From positions 8,327 to 72,326 of the forward strand of contig JBAWYM010000001.1 in the NCBI GenBank assembly GCA_037143575.1: a DNA stretch of 64,000 nucleotides. The letters are read 5' to 3'. The DNA comes from Candidatus Peregrinibacteria bacterium (lineage in GTDB: Bacteria; Patescibacteriota; Gracilibacteria; Peribacterales; Peribacteraceae). Positions 1,628 through 55,515 of the stretch are shown piece after piece. The notes beneath the pieces are model-generated. The model had not been told where the DNA came from. It made no database searches and saw only the letters and a program-made list of their open reading frames with translations. Position numbers and translations under genes: made by a program. Numbering within the stretch: position 1 is the stretch's first letter; each line of letters opens with the position of its first letter.

Positions 1628-1760
1628 TGTCATAGTGAGCGTAGTCGAACTATGACATTGAATTGCATCCTTCGACTACGCTCAGGATGACAATGACTAC
1701 GCTCAGGATGATAATTGCTACTCTCAGAATGACAATTACTACGAGGATGACACGCTGAGT
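1628..1760. repeat. Cluster of palindromic REP-like elements (GTCAT..GAGCGTAGTCGAA..ATGAC family)
   Basis: Contains GTCATAGTGAGCGTAGTCGAACTATGAC and GCATCCTTCGACTACGCTCAGGATGAC plus degenerate copies. The same family recurs at 5577, 21290, 40141, 42410, 53483 and 55000. Confidence 0.75.
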
Positions 1761-21246: not shown

Positions 21247-21289
21247 ACATGATGCGAAACAAGGATCGGACATCCACTGAAAGACCATA

Positions 21290-21321
21290 CTGTCATCCTG
21301 AGCGTAGTCGAAGGATGACAG
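21290..21321. repeat. Palindromic REP-like element CTGTCATCCTGAGCGTAGTCGAAGGATGACAG
   Basis: Read directly from the sequence. Same family as 1628-1760. Confidence 0.85.
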
Positions 21322-21405
21322 GTGGATGCTGAATGAATTATACCACAAAACACACCCAATCTTTTAAATGGAGGAGGATCACCATCGAAATAGTGACCTC
21401 CGAAA

Positions 21406-36869: not shown

Positions 36870-38434
36870 CGGTATTGTTGGGAAAGGTCTCGGTATCGAA
36901 GGAAGAGCGCATGTACCGCGCCGGAATCGAGGGTTTTGCGGGCCAGAAAGAAAGCGGAGCGGAGAGACAATGCCGCACCCGCTAGAAGCAGCGCATGAGA
37001 AGCGTTCACGAGAACAAGGTTCCGTTGTGCTTCTGTTCCCTCGCCCTTCGCAACAGCAGCGAAGATCTTCGCATTCTCCTCGGCCGATCCACCTTCGATA
37101 GCGGAAGGCTGAGCAATCGGCAGACCCAAATCGGAGGGAAGGAAGAACTCTTCTTTGCCGGTCTCGGTATTCCGGATGACCGTCGGAGCGCAAACCGACA
37201 CCTCATCCAGTCCATCGAGTCCCGAAACGACAATGCCCCTGCCAATGCCGAGAATCTTCAAGCTCTCCGCCAACATTGTCGCATCCTCTGCTTTCCCCGT
37301 GCCGAGGAGCTGATGCGTGGCACCGGCGGGATTGCAGAGGGGTCCGAGGAAGTTGAAAATTGTCTTCTTGCCGTAGCGCTTGCGGAGCAGTGCGACGAAG
37401 CGCAGTGCCGGATGATGGAGAGGGGCAAAGAGGAAAACGATTCCAAGCTCATCGAATAACCGTCGTTCCGCTTCGGGCGAAAGCATGATATTCACCCCCA
37501 GATGTTTCAGGAGATCGAAGCAACCGCAGTTCCCGCTCGCCGATCTGTTCCCGTGCTTGGCAACCTTCCCTCCTGCCGCGGCGACGAGGAAAGCTGTCAG
37601 AGTAGAAGTGTTGATTGTCCTCTTGCCGCTGCCTCCGGTGCCACAGGTATCGATGGCCTCTGTACCAAGAGAAACAGGAACCATACGTTTCCTCAGAGCC
37701 AGTACTCCGTCAGCGAGAACGTCAGGGGTCATAGGAAGTTGGACCAATTTCTGAAAAGCCTGATTTCTCTGATCTTCAGAAGTTGCCTCAGAAAGAAGTA
37801 GATAGAGCAATGATTCGATGGATTGATGATCCGTTTCCTCCCTTGTAGATGAGGCCAGCGAAAGAAAGTTTTTGAGTATGCTCTTCCCTGACGGTGTGCC
37901 AATCGACTCCGGATGGAACTGTACACCGAAGAGCGGCAGGGACTCGTGCTCCATCGCCATCACGACCCCGTCCTCTGTCTCTGCAGTGACATGAAACTCT
38001 GGCGGTAGGGTTTCCGGTTCGACACAGAGCGAGTGGTAGCGCATAGCCTCGAATCCATCGACAATTCCGGCGAAGAGCGGACTGCTATGACGGAGCTGAA
38101 TACTCGATGCCTTGCCGTGAAATACGGAGGGTGCTCTGGAGACGGTCGCCCCGAAGTGCTTGCCGAGCACTTGATGACCCAGGCACACGCCGAGGAGAGG
38201 GATCTTCTCTGCGGCGGCGTAATCGATGAGCTCCTCCGAAATCCCGATATCCCGCTTCGTCGAGGGATTCCCAGGACCCGGACTGATGATGATGTGCGTG
38301 AAATGCAGACGACGAATATCGTCGATACTCACGGCATCGTTGCATTCGACGATCGGGTTACCGCCAAGTTCTCCGATCTCCTGATAGAGATTGAAAGTGA
38401 AAGAATCGTAGTTATCGAGGATGAGAGTTTTCAT
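36866..38434 (-). CDS. trpGD: Bifunctional anthranilate synthase component II / anthranilate phosphoribosyltransferase (TrpG-TrpD fusion)
   Basis: N-terminal part: ILDNYDSFTFNL and LGVCLGHQ. C-terminal part: DTCGTGGSGKRTINTST. Confidence 0.9.
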   Translation of the reverse strand: MKTLILDNYDSFTFNLYQEIGELGGNPIVECNDAVSIDDIRRLHFTHIIISPGPGNPSTKRDIGISEELIDYAAAEKIPLLGVCLGHQVLGKHFGATVSRAPSVFHGKASSIQLRHSSPLFAGIVDGFEAMRYHSLCVEPETLPPEFHVTAETEDGVVMAMEHESLPLFGVQFHPESIGTPSGKSILKNFLSLASSTREETDHQSIESLLYLLLSEATSEDQRNQAFQKLVQLPMTPDVLADGVLALRKRMVPVSLGTEAIDTCGTGGSGKRTINTSTLTAFLVAAAGGKVAKHGNRSASGNCGCFDLLKHLGVNIMLSPEAERRLFDELGIVFLFAPLHHPALRFVALLRKRYGKKTIFNFLGPLCNPAGATHQLLGTGKAEDATMLAESLKILGIGRGIVVSGLDGLDEVSVCAPTVIRNTETGKEEFFLPSDLGLPIAQPSAIEGGSAEENAKIFAAVAKGEGTEAQRNLVLVNASHALLLAGAALSLRSAFFLARKTLDSGAVHALFLRYRDLSQQYR

Positions 38435-39837
38435 GATGCGCTGTGGGAAGTATTTGCTAATTGCAAAGCCGCAAGGCAGCTCCTCGCTTTGTGCAGACAT
38501 TCATCATCCTCATGTTCCGGAACGCTATCTTTGACGATCCCCGCCCCTACCCGAAGGCTGATGGAATCGTTCTGAAAGAGCATTGTCCTAATCGTGATCG
38601 CGAAATCGAGGTTGCCCGAGAGATCGATGTACCCGAACGCCCCGCCGTAGACCCCTCTCGGAGAACGCTCCAGACGACGAATGATCTCCATCGCCCGGAC
38701 TTTCGGCGCACCCGTGAGAGTCCCGGCCGGAAAGACCGACCGCACGACATCGAGCGATGTTTTGTCCGATCGTACCTGTCCGACAATCTCCGAGACGAGG
38801 TGGTAGACGTGCGCGTACTGCTCGATGTGCACGGGATCCCGCACCTTCACCGAGCCGATCTCCGCGACCCTCCCCACATCATTCCTCCCGAGATCGACAA
38901 GCATCTGGTGCTCGCAGAGCTCCTTCTCATCATGGAGAAGATCTTCCTGTGATGCTTCGTCTTTCACTGCGTCTCCCGTCCTCTTCCGTGTTCCGGCGAT
39001 GGGTCGGTAGAGAATCTGCCGCCCTTCGACGCGTACGAGCGTTTCCGGTGAAGCTCCGACGATAATGAATGCGGGTGTCTGGAAGTAATACATGTACGGC
39101 GAAGGATTGATCCTTCGAAGCTCTTCGTAGACGCGATCAGGGGGAACAGTGCTGGGCATACGCAATTCCTGGCTCAGGACGACTTGGAATGCCTCGCCGG
39201 AAAGAATCTCTTCCTGGATGTTCTGTACGGATGCACAGAAATCCTCTCGCGATGTCTGACGATACGGTTCGATCTCTTCGAGAGTCGGCATGAGTACAGA
39301 AGGCTCGGCAACGCCGTCTTTCCACTTCCGATCATCGAAGAAAGGTGATGAGAGAATGATGCGTTCGATCTCGTAAAGATCTTCTTTCGAGTCTTCGTGT
39401 GTGATCATGGTAATCTCTTGAGCGGCATGGTCGATCTTCAAGATGACCTCCGGAAGAATGAATAATGCATCGGGAATGGTTGGGTCAGGAGTCAATTCAA
39501 TGAATTCAAACTGGCGCGCTGCTTCGTAACTTAGAAATCCGACGTAGCCCATTCGTAGCCGTGTATCGTTCGTTCCAGATCCGATCAATCCCTGAAAGAC
39601 CGAAAGAACATCGTGAACTTTCCCATCCGGAATGTACCGGGATCCACGGACTTCGCCATTCTGCACGGTGAGCACGTCACGCGCCCCCAAGCAGACGAAC
39701 GAGAGATCGTTATTGCCCTTGCGATCCGCAGATTCCAGGAGTGCGCAGTAATCGCGCTTGATCCCCAGTTTCCGCAGGAGGAAGAGTGGATCGCAGTGCT
39801 GAGGCCGGAGGGTGGTGAAGGTGAGAGGGAAGTCCAT
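38431..39837 (-). CDS. trpE: Anthranilate synthase component I
   Basis: YRPIAGTRKRT and GAFGYIDLSGNLDFAITIRT motifs. ATG at 39837. Confidence 0.9.
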   Translation of the reverse strand: MDFPLTFTTLRPQHCDPLFLLRKLGIKRDYCALLESADRKGNNDLSFVCLGARDVLTVQNGEVRGSRYIPDGKVHDVLSVFQGLIGSGTNDTRLRMGYVGFLSYEAARQFEFIELTPDPTIPDALFILPEVILKIDHAAQEITMITHEDSKEDLYEIERIILSSPFFDDRKWKDGVAEPSVLMPTLEEIEPYRQTSREDFCASVQNIQEEILSGEAFQVVLSQELRMPSTVPPDRVYEELRRINPSPYMYYFQTPAFIIVGASPETLVRVEGRQILYRPIAGTRKRTGDAVKDEASQEDLLHDEKELCEHQMLVDLGRNDVGRVAEIGSVKVRDPVHIEQYAHVYHLVSEIVGQVRSDKTSLDVVRSVFPAGTLTGAPKVRAMEIIRRLERSPRGVYGGAFGYIDLSGNLDFAITIRTMLFQNDSISLRVGAGIVKDSVPEHEDDECLHKARSCLAALQLANTSHSAS

Positions 39838-39868
39838 GGGAGAGGGTCGGGGTGAGGGAATTGAGAAA

Positions 39869-39900
39869 CAAAAAAAGCCCCTCCGCTCAGGGAAGGGCTT
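39869..39900 (-). terminator. Attenuator terminator upstream of trpE (GCCCTTCC-ctgagc-GGAGGGGC + T7)
   Basis: On the minus strand an 8-bp stem is followed by TTTTTTT, ending about 30 nt before the trpE ATG. Confidence 0.7.
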
Positions 39901-39923
39901 TGGATTCAAAGTTCAGAGCACCC

Positions 39924-39992
39924 TTACCGCGAAGCGAAATGTGTAAGGCTCTGCCACCAACCAAGCCGACGGGAAGTGCTGTACTTATACAC
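39924..39992 (-). CDS. Candidate trp leader peptide with tandem Trp codons (...RRLGWWQSLTHFASR)
   Basis: TGG TGG at 39959-39954. The frame is open upstream to in-frame GTG 39992, TTG 40028 and GTG 40046, with no in-frame ATG. The stop TAA at 39926-39924 lies inside hairpin segment 2. Confidence 0.45.
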   Translation of the reverse strand: MYKYSTSRRLGWWQSLTHFASR

Positions 39993-40140
39993 CGGTACAA
40001 TGGTACATATAGGTTTGGATGAATGCAAGGGATTTTTTCCGGTCACACCCGAGCATAATCCGCATTCCTCGTTTGGGATGCGAAAGCGGTTCGAAATTCC
40101 TCAAACACGGTGCACCATCGAAGAAAATCAGGAATGAAAA

Positions 40141-40198
40141 AATGTCATCCTTCGATGCTTCGTCTGTGCTCAGCACAGGCTCCGCTCAGGATGACATT
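40141..40198. repeat. Palindromic REP-like element
   Basis: AATGTCATCCTTCGATGCTTCG...GCTCCGCTCAGGATGACATT. The core is nearly identical to 42410-42456. Confidence 0.85.
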
Positions 40199-40227
40199 TC
40201 TTCATTAATTCTCGTCAAAGAAAACGT

Positions 40228-41670
40228 CTACGACCCCGATATCGTCACGGTCGCAGCAGTGGAAGTCACTCCCAGCGAAGCACGAGTCGGGCTGGAGAGA
40301 CCCACGGTGAAGTTTTTGCCGATAGACCCACCCGGCTTCAAAATCGGGATGGCAATCGTCTTGCTGTACTCACCGGGGAAGAATGTGAGCGTACCGGAGA
40401 ACTGGGTGAACTCTTTGCTCGGCAACGCTGTACCGGCAATGGTCGTGTACACCACTGAAGCCTGACCGATCGTCCCACCGATACGATTGACCGTGAGAAT
40501 GGCATTGGCTCCTTCGGGCGCACTCACCGACGTATTGTCGAAGAGGAACGAACCACTGCCGGGCTTCTCCACCTCATCATCGGTGATCGCAAGATTGATA
40601 AGGGAAGGAGCGGCAATCGTCGCGCCTCCTGTGGGAGTGGTGATGTTGAGCCGAAGAAGCTTCTTCCCATCGGGCGTCGCATTGTAGATGACCGCCACAG
40701 TAAAGGTCTTCGTCGTCTCGCCTGCTGCGAAGGTGATCACTCCTGCAGAGGGCTGGTAATTGATACCACTCCGGGCGGTATTGTCTGATGTCGTATAGGA
40801 AACGCCAACCTGACCATTCGTTCCATTCGTGCGATTGAGAGTGATCGTCGCAAGTCCGATACTCTCGGATACTTCGTAGGCTGCCGCACTGAAACCGATC
40901 GTCCCTGCTCCGCTCACGGCACCTGCCGACGTCTGAGAAGCGGCACTGGAAGACGCTGTGCCCACAGGCTGACTACCAAGAATGGTGAGTGTCGCTGTGT
41001 TGATAGACCCAAGTGTCGCGCCGCCAGTGGGATTGGCGAGGGAGAGAAGCACCGTACGCGCAGAGAGCCCACTCTTGTTTTTGAGCTGTATCGAAAAGGT
41101 CTTCGTGGCTTCGCCATCGCGGAAGTTCAAGACGGAATTGGTGACCTCGATGAAGTCTGTACCGACGACCGCCGTGCCGGCTTTCACAGAGTAGGCGACG
41201 GAGACCACACCGCGAGACCCACCCGCACGTGTCACACTGAAGACCATCGTGGGGATAGACTGCGGAACGGTGAAGGAAGACATGGCAAAGGTAAAGGCTC
41301 CGATAGGATTGGCTGCAACGGCTCCCGCACTACTGGAACTCACGACTGTCGATGCAGTGGAAGAAGGAGTCGTTTGCGTCGGAGTATAGCTCGATCCACG
41401 GATATCGTCACGAAGACGCTTGAGCAAGACTGCAAGTTCTCCGCGTGTGACAGGATTATCCGGTCCGAACGTGCCGTTGCTGTACCCTTTGATAATATTG
41501 AGGTTGTACATCTCTCCCACGGCCTCATCGTAAAAAGTTCCTTCCGACATATCAGTGAAAACGGCTGAGCCTCGCATGGTAGCGAGAGCACCCATCGAGA
41601 GTCCGCCGAGGAGAACACCGGCGAGCAGTGATGGAACGGCGATCGTGAACAATCGTGAGGGGAGACGCAT
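40228..41670 (-). CDS. Surface protein: SLH domain plus four Calx-beta-like repeats
   Basis: Signal peptide. GYSNGTFGPDNPVTRGELAVLL (SLH). Repeated ...V.R.GG..G...V.Y.T..GTA..G.D[FY]......L.F..GE..KT[FI].I blocks. Confidence 0.65.
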   Translation of the reverse strand: MRLPSRLFTIAVPSLLAGVLLGGLSMGALATMRGSAVFTDMSEGTFYDEAVGEMYNLNIIKGYSNGTFGPDNPVTRGELAVLLKRLRDDIRGSSYTPTQTTPSSTASTVVSSSSAGAVAANPIGAFTFAMSSFTVPQSIPTMVFSVTRAGGSRGVVSVAYSVKAGTAVVGTDFIEVTNSVLNFRDGEATKTFSIQLKNKSGLSARTVLLSLANPTGGATLGSINTATLTILGSQPVGTASSSAASQTSAGAVSGAGTIGFSAAAYEVSESIGLATITLNRTNGTNGQVGVSYTTSDNTARSGINYQPSAGVITFAAGETTKTFTVAVIYNATPDGKKLLRLNITTPTGGATIAAPSLINLAITDDEVEKPGSGSFLFDNTSVSAPEGANAILTVNRIGGTIGQASVVYTTIAGTALPSKEFTQFSGTLTFFPGEYSKTIAIPILKPGGSIGKNFTVGLSSPTRASLGVTSTAATVTISGS

Positions 41671-54410: not shown

Positions 54411-55515
54411 CCGCTGCGGCTAATTGTCCACACGCCGCCGCAATATCCTCCCCCATCGTCCTCCTCTCCGTGACATCCAATCCATGCCGCAGGATTTCGG
54501 CTTTGAATGCCTCGATGTTGTCGCGCTTCGCCGCGAAGTAAATTTTGCCGGAGACCGGGTTTAAGGGAATCACATTGAGCTTGGGCGCTCCGGCACTCTT
54601 GATGTACCGCACGAGCTCCCGGGCGTGGTCCAGGGAATCATTCACGCCGCTGATCAGCGTGTACTCGAAGGTGACGTAGTGACGGCGATTGCCCTTCTCC
54701 ACTTCGTAGCGCTTGCACCAGGTCGCGAGCTTGGTGAGGAAGTCGGGGACAGTGGAAGGAACGATTGCTGTACGACGCTTTTGATCGGCGCTATGAAGAG
54801 AAACCGCGATGCGCACATTGGGCCAGTCGGGATCGGTGAGGACTTTCTCGAGCGCAGGCAGAATGCCGACGGTGGAGAGCGTGATGTGCGTGGGACCGAT
54901 GTCGGCATACGTCGTCCAGAGGTGAATTGCCTTCTTCACGTTCTCGATGTTGTTGAAGGGCTCACCCATGCCCATAAAAACGACGTTGCTAATGCGCAGC
55001 ATTGTCATCCTGAGCGGAGTCGAAGGATGACAATGCGTGTTCATGGTTCGTTCCTCGACACGGCTCGGAATGACAGGACAATGCAGCAGATAGTTATTCC
55101 AAAACCGTATCTGATCCGCGATCTCATCCGAAGATAAATTCCGCTTGAATCCCATCGCTCCGGTTGCGCAGAACACGCACCCCATCGCGCAGCCAATCTG
55201 GGAGGAGACGCACACCGTCCACTGATCCTTGGCATTGGCCATCAGAACCGTCTCGAAGAGCTGCCCATCGCTTCCTTTCAACAATGCCTTGAACGTATCG
55301 CCGCGCTTGCTCTCGAGGACCTTCGAAGCCTCCACGGAAATCCACGGAATCTCCCGCGCGATGACCTCACGCATGGGTTTAGGGAAAACGGTAACGTCCT
55401 GCCAGCTCTTGAAATGGGGGCTAAAGACTGCCTCTTCGATCTGCCGGGCTCTGAACTTCGGAACCTTGGGAAAGAGTTCCGCGAATCGCTCGGTGCGGGT
55501 AACGGGGACGGGCAT
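54406..55515 (-). CDS. rlmN: 23S rRNA/tRNA adenine-C2 methyltransferase RlmN (radical SAM) carrying an in-frame repeat insertion
   Basis: CAMGCVFC (Cx3Cx2C), VVFMGMGEPFNN and C-terminal Cys region. ATG at 55515. Confidence 0.9.
   Translation of the reverse strand: MPVPVTRTERFAELFPKVPKFRARQIEEAVFSPHFKSWQDVTVFPKPMREVIAREIPWISVEASKVLESKRGDTFKALLKGSDGQLFETVLMANAKDQWTVCVSSQIGCAMGCVFCATGAMGFKRNLSSDEIADQIRFWNNYLLHCPVIPSRVEERTMNTHCHPSTPLRMTMLRISNVVFMGMGEPFNNIENVKKAIHLWTTYADIGPTHITLSTVGILPALEKVLTDPDWPNVRIAVSLHSADQKRRTAIVPSTVPDFLTKLATWCKRYEVEKGNRRHYVTFEYTLISGVNDSLDHARELVRYIKSAGAPKLNVIPLNPVSGKIYFAAKRDNIEAFKAEILRHGLDVTERRTMGEDIAAACGQLAAAE
55000..55075. repeat. Two REP-like palindromes inserted in frame within rlmN
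   Basis: CATTGTCATCCTGAGCGGAGTCGAAGGATGACAATG plus TCATGGTTCGTTCCTCGACACGGCTCGGAATGACA. Translated (minus strand) as ...HCPVIPSRVEERTMNTHCHPSTPLRMTML.... Confidence 0.8.

What the first reader, a model, noticed from the sequence alone, without database searches (positions are those of the whole stretch)
39838..40060. Leader-peptide (ribosome-mediated) attenuator upstream of trpE
All of the following is read on the minus strand. About 30 nt upstream of the trpE ATG there is an intrinsic terminator. It has an 8-bp stem (GCCCTTCC/GGAGGGGC, 39897-39876) followed by seven T.

Upstream of the terminator there is an open frame containing tandem Trp codons (TGG TGG, 39959-39954). It reads ...RRLGWWQSLTHFASR and stops at TAA 39926-39924.

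Immediately after the Trp codons, segment 1 (CAGAGCCTTAC, 39953-39943) pairs with segment 2 (GTAAGGGTGCTCTG, 39927-39914). That helix is 11 bp with a 3-nt bulge. The AAGGG..CT part of segment 2 can instead pair with the 5' arm of the terminator (AGCCCTT).

This is the logic of the E. coli trpL attenuator. Stalling at WW covers segment 1 and frees segment 2 to act as an antiterminator. Reading through to the stop codon inside segment 2 lets the terminator form.

Caveats:
- There is no in-frame ATG. The only candidate starts are GTG 39992, TTG 40028 and GTG 40046.
- The antiterminator pairing is short, about 5 to 7 bp.
Basis: partly seen in the sequence, partly recalled or inferred. Interest (0 to 1): 0.7.

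Follow-up and report, generated by a model that had tools for sequence, protein, structure and literature searches.

The report
Tryptophan-sensing leader-peptide attenuator before trpE
A short 22-codon reading frame with two adjacent tryptophan codons, followed by a terminator hairpin and a competing hairpin, sits in front of the tryptophan-synthesis operon of an uncultured Peregrinibacteria (CPR) bacterium and is conserved in its relatives. It is therefore very probably the classic ribosome-sensed trp attenuator, here in a lineage where I found no earlier description.

Summary
On the minus strand, an 8-bp G+C-rich hairpin plus seven T lies 32 nt upstream of the trpE ATG. A TGG TGG-containing frame ends at TAA 39926-39924.

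Twelve Peribacteria-type relatives with an intact leader were retrieved through TrpE alone (66-81% identity). All keep the same layout:
- a promoter (TTGnnn-17-TAnnnT) and a 20-bp TGTAC-N10-GTACA palindrome;
- a short open frame (WW in 11 of 12);
- exactly 9 codons from WW to a stop (TAA, TAG or TGA);
- a terminator.

The window's start codon is GTG 39992, which is ATG in two relatives. It lies at the predicted transcript 5' end, so the leader frame is probably leaderless.

The last four codons, the stop and 4-5 nt beyond it (39937-39920) pair with the terminator's 5' arm and its conserved loop AGCGG (39898-39883). This pairing is the RNAalifold consensus, shows compensatory changes, and beats shuffles.

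The Rfam Trp_leader model scores below threshold. Verdict: interpretation supported; a new member of a known kind; nothing tested experimentally.

The parts
   Evidence: TTGnnn lies 17 nt (16 in L003) upstream of a TAnnnT hexamer in 11 of the 13 leader-bearing sequences, while the spacer sequence is not conserved. Consensus match only; the transcription start is not mapped.
40000..40005 (-). -10 hexamer TACCAT
   Evidence: A TAnnnT hexamer directly abuts the 20-bp palindrome in 11 of 13 sequences. The tool's strict sigma-70 scan did not call it, so it is inferred from conservation.
39980..39999 (-). TrpR-type operator-like palindrome TGTACCGGTGTATAAGTACA (TGTAC-N10-GTACA). It overlaps the predicted transcription start and the first four codons of the leader ORF.
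   Evidence: It is the only perfect match in the 64-kb window. It is conserved in all leader-bearing relatives and also in L091 and L095, which lack the leader. A Pfam Trp_repressor gene (E = 9.5e-21) lies next to it in L002, L003, L004, L086, L089, L091 and L092. It has the same outer GTAC half-sites and 10-nt spacing as the E. coli trp operator GAAC-TAGTTAACTA-GTAC. Binding was not tested.
39924..39992 (-). Leader ORF, GTG...TAA, 22 codons: MYKYSTSRRLGWWQSLTHFASR
   Evidence: This frame is open in 13 of 13 sequences; the other two frames carry stops in 4 and 7 of them. An in-frame ATG, GTG or TTG is present at nt 1, 5 or 13 of the predicted transcript in all. L093 has an in-frame 9-nt deletion. 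L087 has a 1-nt insertion together with a new ATG ATG start. The stop is TAA, TAG or TGA at the same site.
39954..39959 (-). Tandem Trp codons TGG TGG (the regulatory codons)
   Evidence: Invariant in 12 of 13 sequences. L087 has TGG CGG plus a TGG just before its stop. The distance to the stop is always 9 codons.
39943..39953 (-). Segment 1 (CAGAGCCTTAC), 5' strand of the 1:2 helix
   Evidence: It pairs with 39927-39914 in the MFE fold of the window leader, at -12.5 kcal/mol, z = -1.8. It is not significant in the relatives.
39914..39927 (-). It contains the stop codon.
39920..39937 (-). Antiterminator 5' strand: UCGCUU-c-G-c-GG-u-AAGGG(U), that is, the last four codons, the stop codon and 4-5 nt beyond it
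   Evidence: The constrained fold pairs it with 39898-39883. It is the RNAalifold consensus on the unbiased alignment A2. 96.2% of cells are paired, 3 pairs carry compensatory changes, and 2 of 500 shuffles reach the score.
39883..39898 (-). Antiterminator 3' strand: the terminator 5' arm GCCCTTCC, the loop CTGAGC and the first two nt of the 3' arm
   Evidence: Same calls. The loop core AGCGG is invariant except for AACGG in L088, where the partner CCGTT keeps Watson-Crick pairing.
39874..39901 (-). Intrinsic terminator hairpin (core stem 39898-39891 / 39884-39877, extended by AAA/TTT)
   Evidence: 11 pairs, 6 G-C, loop 6. -18.1 kcal/mol with the A:U extension and -14.3 without it. A terminator is present at the same place in all 12 relatives; L093 has a poor T-tract.
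39870..39876 (-). T-run (7 T), the expected site of the attenuated 3' end
38431..39837 (-). trpE, first gene of trpE-trpGD-trpC-trpF-trpB-trpA (down to 33472)
   Evidence: Pfam Chorismate_bind 1.5e-90 plus Anth_synt_I_N. ORF map. 100% identical to a protein that NCBI names as from a Candidatus Peregrinibacteria MAG.

Best explanation
This is a ribosome-mediated (leader-peptide) transcription attenuator of the trpE-GD-C-F-B-A operon of a Peregrinibacteria (Peribacter-like, CPR) bacterium.

Transcription probably starts at or 1 nt before GTG 39992, from a TTGCAT-17-TACCAT promoter. The 22-codon leader frame is therefore translated from the very 5' end, without a Shine-Dalgarno sequence.

When charged tRNA-Trp is scarce:
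- the ribosome stalls with UGG UGG (39959-39954) in its A/P sites;
- its 3' edge reaches only about 39944-39941;
- the last four codons, the stop and the next nucleotides (39937-39920) stay free;
- as they emerge, these pair with the terminator's 5' arm and loop (39898-39883);
- the terminator cannot form, and RNA polymerase reads into trpE.

When tryptophan is plentiful:
- the ribosome runs on to UAA (39926-39924) and physically covers the antiterminator's 5' strand;
- after release, in the window, segment 1 re-pairs with segment 2;
- the 39898-39877 hairpin plus U7 forms, and transcription ends near 39870.

A TrpR-type operator over the transcription start probably adds repression of initiation, giving dual control as in E. 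coli.

Shown by sequence and comparison: the elements, their conservation and the alternative pairings. Inferred: the transcription start, translation of the leader, stalling, and the termination outcome.
For: 1. Context. The leader sits between a gene that has its own strong hairpin terminator (40211-40137, -39.5 kcal/mol, z = -4.7) and a complete trp operon.

2. Conservation, retrieved without bias through TrpE. All 12 distinct relatives with TrpE at 66% identity or more have the leader, although their upstream neighbours differ.

3. Coding signatures.
- The WW frame is open in 13 of 13; the other frames have stops in 4 and 7.
- L093 has an in-frame 9-nt deletion.
- L087 has a 1-nt insertion rescued by a new ATG ATG.
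- The start is ATG in L001 and L005 where the window has GTG.
- L003 and L004 have lost that start (TTA) but carry an ATG four codons (12 nt) downstream.
- The stop is kept as TAA, TAG or TGA.
- The WW-to-stop distance is invariant at 9 codons.

4. Antiterminator.
- It is the RNAalifold consensus of the MAFFT alignment.
- 96.2% of cells are paired, against 69% or less for slid controls. Three pairs have double changes. The covariation score is reached by 2 of 500 shuffles.
- Its energy is -17.6 to -23.2 kcal/mol, against -7.7 to -14.3 for the terminators.
- Against shuffles of the 5' strand, z = -1.9 to -4.5 in all 13.

5. Ribosome-position model. Mean predicted terminator probability is 0.08 or less with the A site on W1 or W2. 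It rises to about 0.75 or more within four codons past W1, depending on the assumed 3' edge. In the window it jumps from 0.10-0.16 at W2 to 0.95-0.97 at the next codon. So the Trp codons are the last positions where a stalled ribosome leaves the antiterminator free.

6. The sub-threshold but best Rfam hit is Trp_leader (20.7 bits, E = 0.12).

7. Leaderless initiation is plausible.
- The -10 ends 7 nt before the start codon.
- The genome is SD-poor (4 of 47 starts), and TAnnnT is enriched 4-9 nt upstream of ATGs.
- Candidatus Peribacter riflensis is listed as SD-scarce (PMC10783764).
- A leaderless trpEGD leader peptide is documented in Deinococcus deserti (PMC4007540).
Against: - There are no experimental data of any kind: no mapped 5' or 3' ends, no evidence of translation.
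- The start codon is GTG in the window and TTG in five relatives, which are unusual for leaderless initiation. The NTG at that site is also part of the operator's central dyad (nTG|CAn), so it could be there for the operator rather than as a start.
- The peptide shows no clear third-position bias.
- The equilibrium ribosome-position model failed its positive control. For the authentic E. coli trp leader it predicts 0.97 terminator at every ribosome position. The model is therefore not a validated predictor; it only shows that here the antiterminator is thermodynamically dominant when free.
- The 1:2 helix is not significantly conserved.
- With the U-tract included, the window's own terminator stays favoured at equilibrium in all states (0.95).
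- L087 has only W-R at the regulatory position.
- L004's modelled terminator is weak (0.06 with the ribosome at the stop).
- The 13 sequences are related, so the covariation statistics are modest.
- The 11-mer CCTGAGCGGAG of the window's terminator also occurs in a hairpin-repeat family of this genome, so part of the loop similarity could have another origin.
Confidence: 0.8

Rival explanations
1. The terminator/antiterminator switch is real but is set by a trans-acting factor rather than by a translating ribosome. Candidates are an RNA-binding protein of the TRAP or PyrR type, uncharged tRNA-Trp as in a T-box, or a small ligand. On this view the WW frame is incidental.
For: The strongest conserved blocks (UGGUGGCAG, UCCGCU, CGGUARGG, AGCGG) are conserved at nucleotide level. 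The frame shows little third-position bias. UGG could in principle act as a specifier. The start codons are weak (GTG, TTG).
Against: No T-box or any other Rfam family appears even at E <= 10, apart from noise-level hits and Trp_leader. The predicted transcript is only about 120 nt up to the T-run, too short for a T-box. It contains only 3 GAG and no UAG triplets, against the 9-11 repeats a TRAP site needs. The stop codon identity changes (TAA, TAG, TGA) while its position is kept. An in-frame 9-nt deletion and a frameshift with a new ATG preserve the frame.
Confidence: 0.07
2. Regulation is by the TrpR-type repressor only. The hairpin is a constitutive partial terminator or insulator, possibly derived from the genome's hairpin-repeat family, and the alternative pairing has no regulatory role.
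For: The TGTAC-N10-GTACA palindrome is conserved and trpR genes are adjacent in many relatives. Two more distant relatives (L091, L095) have the operator directly before trpE with no leader, so TrpR alone suffices there. The window's terminator shares the 11-mer CCTGAGCGGAG with repeat hairpins.
Against: This does not explain several observations: the invariant WW codons, the fixed 9-codon spacing, the maintained frame and stop, the conserved terminator loop with a co-varying partner inside the ORF, or the antiterminator's stability relative to shuffles.
Confidence: 0.06
3. The leader is a ribosome-mediated attenuator, but the released about 120-nt attenuated RNA or its 22-aa peptide also acts in trans, as rnTrpL and peTrpL do in Sinorhizobium. 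This is an add-on to the main explanation, not an alternative.
For: There is precedent in PMC6614838 and PMC7298713 (listed). The peptide motifs RRLGWWQ and S[AV]xR are fairly conserved.
Against: No target was identified.
Confidence: 0.05

Closest known systems
E. coli / enterobacterial trpL attenuator (Rfam RF00513 Trp_leader), together with the TrpR operator at the trp promoter
   Same: A short leader ORF with GGU UGG UGG, followed by an intrinsic terminator just upstream of trpE, with an antiterminator that uses the terminator's 5' arm. Initiation is also controlled by a TrpR-family operator with GTAC half-sites 10 nt apart overlapping the promoter (E. coli sequence checked). The best Rfam hit for the window is this family.
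   Different: - The score is far below the family threshold (20.7 and 22.6 bits against 41).
- There is no 5' UTR or SD; the ORF starts at the predicted transcript 5' end and inside the operator.
- There are 9 codons, not 3, between WW and the stop.
- The stop lies inside the antiterminator strand.
- The antiterminator also pairs with the terminator loop, and it is more stable than the terminator, whereas in E. coli 2:3 is the weaker helix.
- The 1:2 helix is weak or absent in most relatives.
- The host is a CPR bacterium.
Leaderless leader peptides of Deinococcus deserti (including trpEGD) (PMC4007540)
   Same: The leader-peptide ORF begins at, or 1 nt from, the transcription start, without an SD. 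It sits upstream of amino-acid biosynthesis genes including trpE.
   Different: In D. deserti the 5' ends were mapped by dRNA-seq; here the start is only predicted from a conserved promoter. The phylum is unrelated, and no sequence similarity was tested.
Leader-peptide attenuators predicted in Actinobacteria and alpha-proteobacteria (for example Sinorhizobium trpL upstream of trpE(G); PMC1262725, PMC6614838)
   Same: Same logic: Trp codons in a short upstream ORF, with terminator and antiterminator alternatives before trpE.
   Different: The sequences are independent, those hosts lack an associated TrpR operator, and the starts are SD-led in most cases.

Membership tests
Rfam RF00513 Trp_leader | Covariance-model score at or above the curated gathering threshold (41 bits) | tested here: not met
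   Window 39869-39965(-): 20.7 bits, E = 0.12. Among 10 relatives only L001 hits, at 22.6 bits. No hit at gathering threshold in the whole window.
Ribosome-mediated (leader-peptide) transcription attenuators of amino-acid operons | Short ORF upstream of the operon, enriched in codons for the cognate amino acid and conserved in relatives | tested here: met
   A 17-22 codon ORF in 13 of 13 sequences. TGG TGG in 12 of 13; L087 has TGG CGG plus a further TGG.
Ribosome-mediated (leader-peptide) transcription attenuators of amino-acid operons | Intrinsic terminator between the leader ORF and the first structural gene | tested here: met
   Present in all 13; the T-tract is poor in L093.
Ribosome-mediated (leader-peptide) transcription attenuators of amino-acid operons | Antiterminator mutually exclusive with the terminator, supported by conservation or covariation | tested here: met
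   RNAalifold consensus. 96.2% of cells paired, 3 compensatory pairs, 2 of 500 shuffles. z = -1.9 to -4.5 against shuffles.
Ribosome-mediated (leader-peptide) transcription attenuators of amino-acid operons | Geometry: a ribosome stalled on the regulatory codons leaves the antiterminator free, and a ribosome further on blocks it | tested here: met
   In-silico footprint scan. The switch occurs 1-3 codons after W2 in all 13, and the spacing is invariant. Caveat: the same model does not reproduce the E. coli control.
Ribosome-mediated (leader-peptide) transcription attenuators of amino-acid operons | Anti-antiterminator (1:2) helix that restores termination when the leader is not being translated | tested here: inconclusive
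   Window: -12.5 kcal/mol, z = -1.8, and the model gives termination when the ribosome is 3 codons or more upstream of WW. Relatives: z = -1.6 to +0.8, and several fold into the antiterminator without a ribosome.
Ribosome-mediated (leader-peptide) transcription attenuators of amino-acid operons | Leader is translated, and termination responds to charged tRNA-Trp | not testable with these tools
   Needs Term-seq, reporter assays or coupled in-vitro assays.
T-box riboswitch (RF00230) | Stem I with a specifier loop, and the T-box antiterminator motif | tested here: not met
   No T-box hit at E <= 10 in 39700-40300, nor at E <= 5 in 10 relatives. The leader is only about 120 nt long.
TRAP-regulated trp leader (Bacillus type) | 9-11 (G/U)AG triplets spaced by 2-3 nt, overlapping the antiterminator | tested here: not met
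   Direct reading of 39992-39870: three GAG and no UAG triplets, not regularly spaced.
TrpR-family repressor/operator control | Palindromic operator with GTAC-type half-sites overlapping the promoter, and a TrpR-family gene in the genome | tested here: inconclusive
   The palindrome TGTAC-N10-GTACA is conserved and unique in the window. PF01371 genes are adjacent in 7 relatives, and they hit PDB Trp-repressor chains. No trpR gene lies in the 64-kb window. Binding was not tested.

The most novel reading that the evidence does not exclude
A leaderless, default-ON form of trp attenuation in a CPR (Peregrinibacteria) lineage. The leader peptide is initiated at the 5'-terminal GTG, ATG or TTG inside a TrpR-type operator. 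The antiterminator is thermodynamically dominant and includes the terminator loop. The terminating ribosome itself, rather than a 1:2 hairpin, is what permits termination. On this reading the element arose within one Peribacteria subclade by insertion between the operator and trpE, possibly from a duplicated trpE 5' end. It would be the first described ribosome-mediated attenuator in the Candidate Phyla Radiation.
Probability: 0.45. Interest if true: 0.55.

Novelty: new member of a known kind. Interest (0 to 1): 0.42.

Why it matters
CPR/Patescibacteria are thought of as reduced, host-dependent cells with little biosynthesis and poorly known gene regulation. This lineage keeps a full trp operon under what looks like the same two-layer control as E. 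coli: a repressor operator plus a Trp-codon-sensing attenuator.

If real, several things follow:
- Transcription and translation are tightly coupled in these organisms.
- Their SD-poor, probably leaderless mRNAs can support ribosome-mediated attenuation.
- Tryptophan supply is a regulated variable for them.

The finding also provides a compact, well-defined RNA motif that current Rfam models miss. That motif could be used to annotate Peribacteria MAGs.

The mechanism itself is textbook, so the gain is in phylogenetic reach and architectural detail, not in principle.

Tried and rejected
- **Metagenome scan.** Run with an alignment of six TrpE proteins. The best 80 loci (L006-L085) are 55% identical or less (mostly 37-45%) and unrelated. 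None of these loci contains the leader pattern.
- **Rfam.** Run at gathering threshold on the window and at permissive E-values on the window and 10 relatives. Only sub-threshold Trp_leader hits appeared. The PyrR, Thr_leader and miRNA hits are noise.
- **Whole-leader MFE against shuffles.** Not significant (z -0.5 and -0.7). This is expected for a switch with competing folds, so it was not used as evidence.
Rejected as a family-wide feature and kept as a window-specific contributor.
- **Equilibrium ribosome-footprint model on the E. coli trp leader, as a positive control.** It predicts the terminator at all ribosome positions, so the model is not validated for kinetically controlled attenuators. 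I report the Peribacteria results only as thermodynamic statements.
- **trpR in the window.** tblastn with the L004 TrpR-like protein and with E. coli TrpR found none in 64 kb.
- **Other copies of the operator palindrome in the window.** None convincing.
- **Rejected readings.** T-box, TRAP, and 'terminator of the upstream gene'. The upstream gene has its own hairpin, and upstream neighbours differ among relatives.
- **Literature.** No paper in the held library links Peregrinibacteria or CPR with leader-peptide attenuation.
Full report
**What is in the window**

On the minus strand the window carries a complete trp operon:
- trpE, 39837-38431;
- a trpG-trpD fusion, to 36866;
- trpC, trpF, trpB;
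- trpA, to 33472.

TrpE is 100% identical to a protein that NCBI assigns to a Candidatus Peregrinibacteria MAG. The five closest genome hits are Candidatus Peribacteria or Peribacteraceae MAGs.

The upstream gene (41691-40228) encodes an SLH/Calx-beta protein. It ends with its own long hairpin at 40211-40137 (-39.5 kcal/mol, z = -4.7). The 390-nt gap before trpE is therefore a separate regulatory region.

**Check of the observation**

- Terminator stem GCCCTTCC / GGAGGGGC at 39898-39891 / 39884-39877.
- Loop CTGAGC, then seven T at 39876-39870, 32 nt before the trpE ATG. The scan tool calls it with 11 pairs.
- TGG TGG at 39959-39954.
- Stop TAA at 39926-39924.
- Segment 1 (39953-39943) pairing with segment 2 (39927-39914) in the MFE fold.

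Alone, these features are only modestly beyond chance. The whole-leader z is about -0.6, and the 1:2 helix z is -1.8.

**Comparative evidence**

I retrieved relatives only through the TrpE protein, so the sample is not biased towards the leader. The sources were:
- five genome loci;
- eleven contigs encoding TrpE homologues of 64-81% identity. One look-up (P0052) returned no DNA.

After removing one duplicate (L090 = L005) there are 15 distinct relatives.
- All 12 with TrpE at 66% identity or more carry the same leader.
- The three at 64-65% identity (L091, L095, L096) do not.

The shared layout is:
- TTGnnn, 17 nt, TAnnnT;
- immediately afterwards a 20-bp palindrome TGTACC-N8-AGTACA;
- a short ORF containing TGG TGG CAG;
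- exactly nine codons later a stop embedded in CGG-TAA/TAG-GG;
- a terminator hairpin whose loop contains AGCGG;
- a T-run.

**Is the frame a real ORF?**

- The WW frame is open in 13 of 13 sequences. The other two frames contain stops in 4 and 7 of them.
- The window's GTG 39992 aligns with ATG in L001 and L005, GTG in L093 and L094, and TTG in five others.
- L003 and L004 have TTA at that position and instead carry an ATG four codons (12 nt) downstream.
- L087 has a 1-nt insertion and a new in-frame ATG ATG.
- L093 has a 9-nt in-frame deletion.
- The stop is TAA, TAG or TGA at a fixed position.
- TGG TGG is invariant in 12 of 13. L087 has TGG CGG and a third TGG before its stop.

That is normal for leader peptides.

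TTG 40028 is the conserved -35 hexamer, and GTG 40046 lies upstream of the promoter.

**Transcript start**

[quoted passage not shown] Three observations make this plausible.
- Only 4 of 47 long ORFs in the window have an SD-like motif. TAnnnT is enriched 4-9 nt upstream of ATGs: 17 occurrences, where about 6 are expected.
- Candidatus Peribacter riflensis is listed among SD-scarce organisms (PMC10783764).
- Leaderless leader peptides, including one for trpEGD, were mapped in Deinococcus deserti (PMC4007540).

The start is inferred, not shown. In addition, the NTG at this site is also the centre of the operator dyad, which weakens it as independent evidence.

**The RNA switch**

RNAalifold on the plain MAFFT alignment of the 13 leaders does not return the terminator. 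It returns a long-range helix between UCCGCU..CGG.UAAGGG and CCCUU.CC..AGCGGA.

In window coordinates, 39937-39920 pairs with 39898-39883:
- U39937-G39883, then CGCUU (39936-39932) with GAGCG (39888-39884);
- G39930 with C39890;
- GG (39928-39927) with CC (39892-39891);
- AAGGG (39925-39921) with CCCUU (39897-39893).

This helix consumes the whole 5' arm and the loop of the terminator.

Support for it:
- On the alignment, 96.2% of cells are paired, against 42-69% when partners are slid. Three pairs show double changes. Only 2 of 500 column shuffles reach the covariation score.
- Examples of covariation: CCGCU:AGCGG becomes CCGUU:AGCGG and then CCGUU:AACGG in L088. UAA with CCCUU changes to UAG with CCCC or CCCUC. 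L087 has GCC:GGC.
- Its energy is -17.6 to -23.2 kcal/mol. The terminators without their A:U extension are -7.7 to -14.3 kcal/mol.
- It beats dinucleotide shuffles of its 5' strand in all 13 sequences, z = -1.9 to -4.5.

In the relatives it is not better than shuffles.

**Ribosome geometry**

I masked a footprint from 15 nt upstream to 11-15 nt downstream of the first A-site nucleotide. I computed the probability of the terminator pairs, with the RNA cut at the T-run.
- With the A site on either UGG, the mean terminator probability is 0.02-0.08.
- Three to four codons past W1 it is 0.3-0.87.
- From four codons past W1 onward it stays at about 0.7-0.86.
- In the window it jumps from 0.10-0.16 at W2 to 0.95-0.97 at the next codon.
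- With the ribosome three codons or more upstream of WW, the window's 1:2 helix restores termination (0.76-0.95).

The invariant 9-codon spacing thus places the Trp codons at the last positions where a stalled ribosome leaves the antiterminator strand free. A ribosome at the stop covers that strand.

Caveat: the same equilibrium model gives 0.97 terminator at all ribosome positions for the authentic E. coli trp leader. It cannot capture kinetic control and is not a validated predictor. It shows only that in these leaders the antiterminator is thermodynamically dominant whenever it is accessible. With the U-tract included, the window's own terminator stays favoured in all states.

**Second layer: a TrpR-type operator**

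The palindrome 39999-39980 is TGTACCGGTGTATAAGTACA. In L001 and L005 it is TGYACCGATG|CATCAGTACA, with up to 9 of 10 positions symmetric.
- It is the only perfect match in the window.
- It has the same GTAC half-sites and 10-nt spacing as the E. coli trp operator GAACTAGTTAACTAGTAC.
- A Pfam Trp_repressor gene (74 bits; closest PDB chains are 'putative Trp repressor' 3frw and 3kor, and more distantly E. coli TrpR) lies next to the leader in seven relatives. It is often divergent, with its start inside the trp promoter spacer.
- No trpR gene lies in the 64-kb window.
- L091 and L095 have the operator followed directly by the trpE ATG. This is the position where L003 and L004 have the leader ATG. 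L004's leader and L095's trpE share GTACATGACCTCC. This suggests the attenuator was inserted between operator and trpE in one subclade.

**Comparison with known systems**

The element works like the enterobacterial trpL attenuator combined with TrpR control. It is not a member of Rfam RF00513: it scores 20.7 and 22.6 bits against a threshold of 41.

It differs from that system in:
- its probable leaderless start;
- a stop codon inside the antiterminator strand;
- an antiterminator that uses the terminator loop and is stronger than the terminator;
- a weak 1:2 helix.

T-box and TRAP models fail their defining features. I found no paper linking CPR or Peregrinibacteria with leader-peptide attenuation.

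**Verdict**

This is a new member of a known kind, of moderate interest for phylogenetic reach and architecture, and experimentally untested.

Noticed in passing
window 39980-39999 (-); L002 181-408, L003 1723-1980, L004 2503-2775, L086 2013-2330, L089 2013-2330, L091 1457-1756, L092 1508-1762: A 20-bp TGTAC-N10-GTACA palindrome lies over the predicted transcription start of the trp leader. An extra TGTACC repeat lies 8 bp upstream, overlapping the -10. TrpR-family genes (PF01371) are adjacent or divergent in seven relatives, but none is present in the 64-kb window. This suggests E. coli-like dual control and possibly trpR autoregulation from the shared region.
   Followed up: partly
window, whole; examples at minus-strand starts listed: The genome is Shine-Dalgarno-poor (4 of 47 long ORFs). 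Regions upstream of start codons are C/T-rich. A -10-like TAnnnT is enriched 4-9 nt upstream of ATG starts, suggesting many leaderless mRNAs. This is consistent with Peribacter being listed as SD-scarce in PMC10783764.
   Followed up: partly
window 1650-1710 (two tandem copies), 21285-21330, 40137-40211, 55000-55040: A family of hairpin repeats with core TGTCATCCTGAGCG(G/T)AG(T/C)CGAAGGATGACA. CCTGAGCGGAG with one mismatch or fewer occurs 12 times, against 1.8 expected. One copy forms the long terminator hairpin of the gene upstream of the trp leader. The trp attenuator's terminator shares the exact 11-mer CCTGAGCGGAG. The origin and role of the repeats are unknown.
   Followed up: partly
L086, L087, L088, L091, L092 downstream of trpE (e.g. 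L086 3904-6407): In several relatives trpE is followed by a TrpG (GATase)-DAHP synthase fusion, DHQ synthase and an EPSP synthase-shikimate kinase fusion, instead of trpD-C-F-B-A. In L086, L087, L088 and L092 the WW leader therefore appears to control shikimate-pathway genes. L091 has this operon but no leader.
   Followed up: no
L091 2470-2530; L095 about 2420-2500; L003 and L004 leaders: More distant relatives have the operator directly followed by the trpE ATG, and their gene calls start at the wrong codon. The leader ATG of L003 and L004 occupies the same position. L004's leader and L095's trpE share GTACATGACCTCC. This hints that the leader ORF derives from a duplicated trpE 5' end, or that the attenuator was later deleted.
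   Followed up: partly
window 39951-39953 (-) and the same column in all relatives: The codon after WW is invariably CAG (UGGUGGCAG in 12 of 13 sequences; UGGCGGCAG in L087). The weak 1:2 base pairing CAG:CUG does not obviously account for this invariance. It remains unexplained.
   Followed up: no
L087 1055-1217: Variant leader: the regulatory dipeptide is W-R (TGG CGG), a second Trp codon sits just before a TGA stop, the upstream frame is shifted by 1 nt with a new ATG ATG start, and the antiterminator carries compensating GCC:GGC pairs.
   Followed up: partly
window 38431-38434 (-): The likely true start of trpGD (MKTLILDNYDSF...) overlaps the trpE stop as ATGA, which suggests translational coupling. 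The longest ORF (from 38500) overshoots by 22 codons.
   Followed up: no
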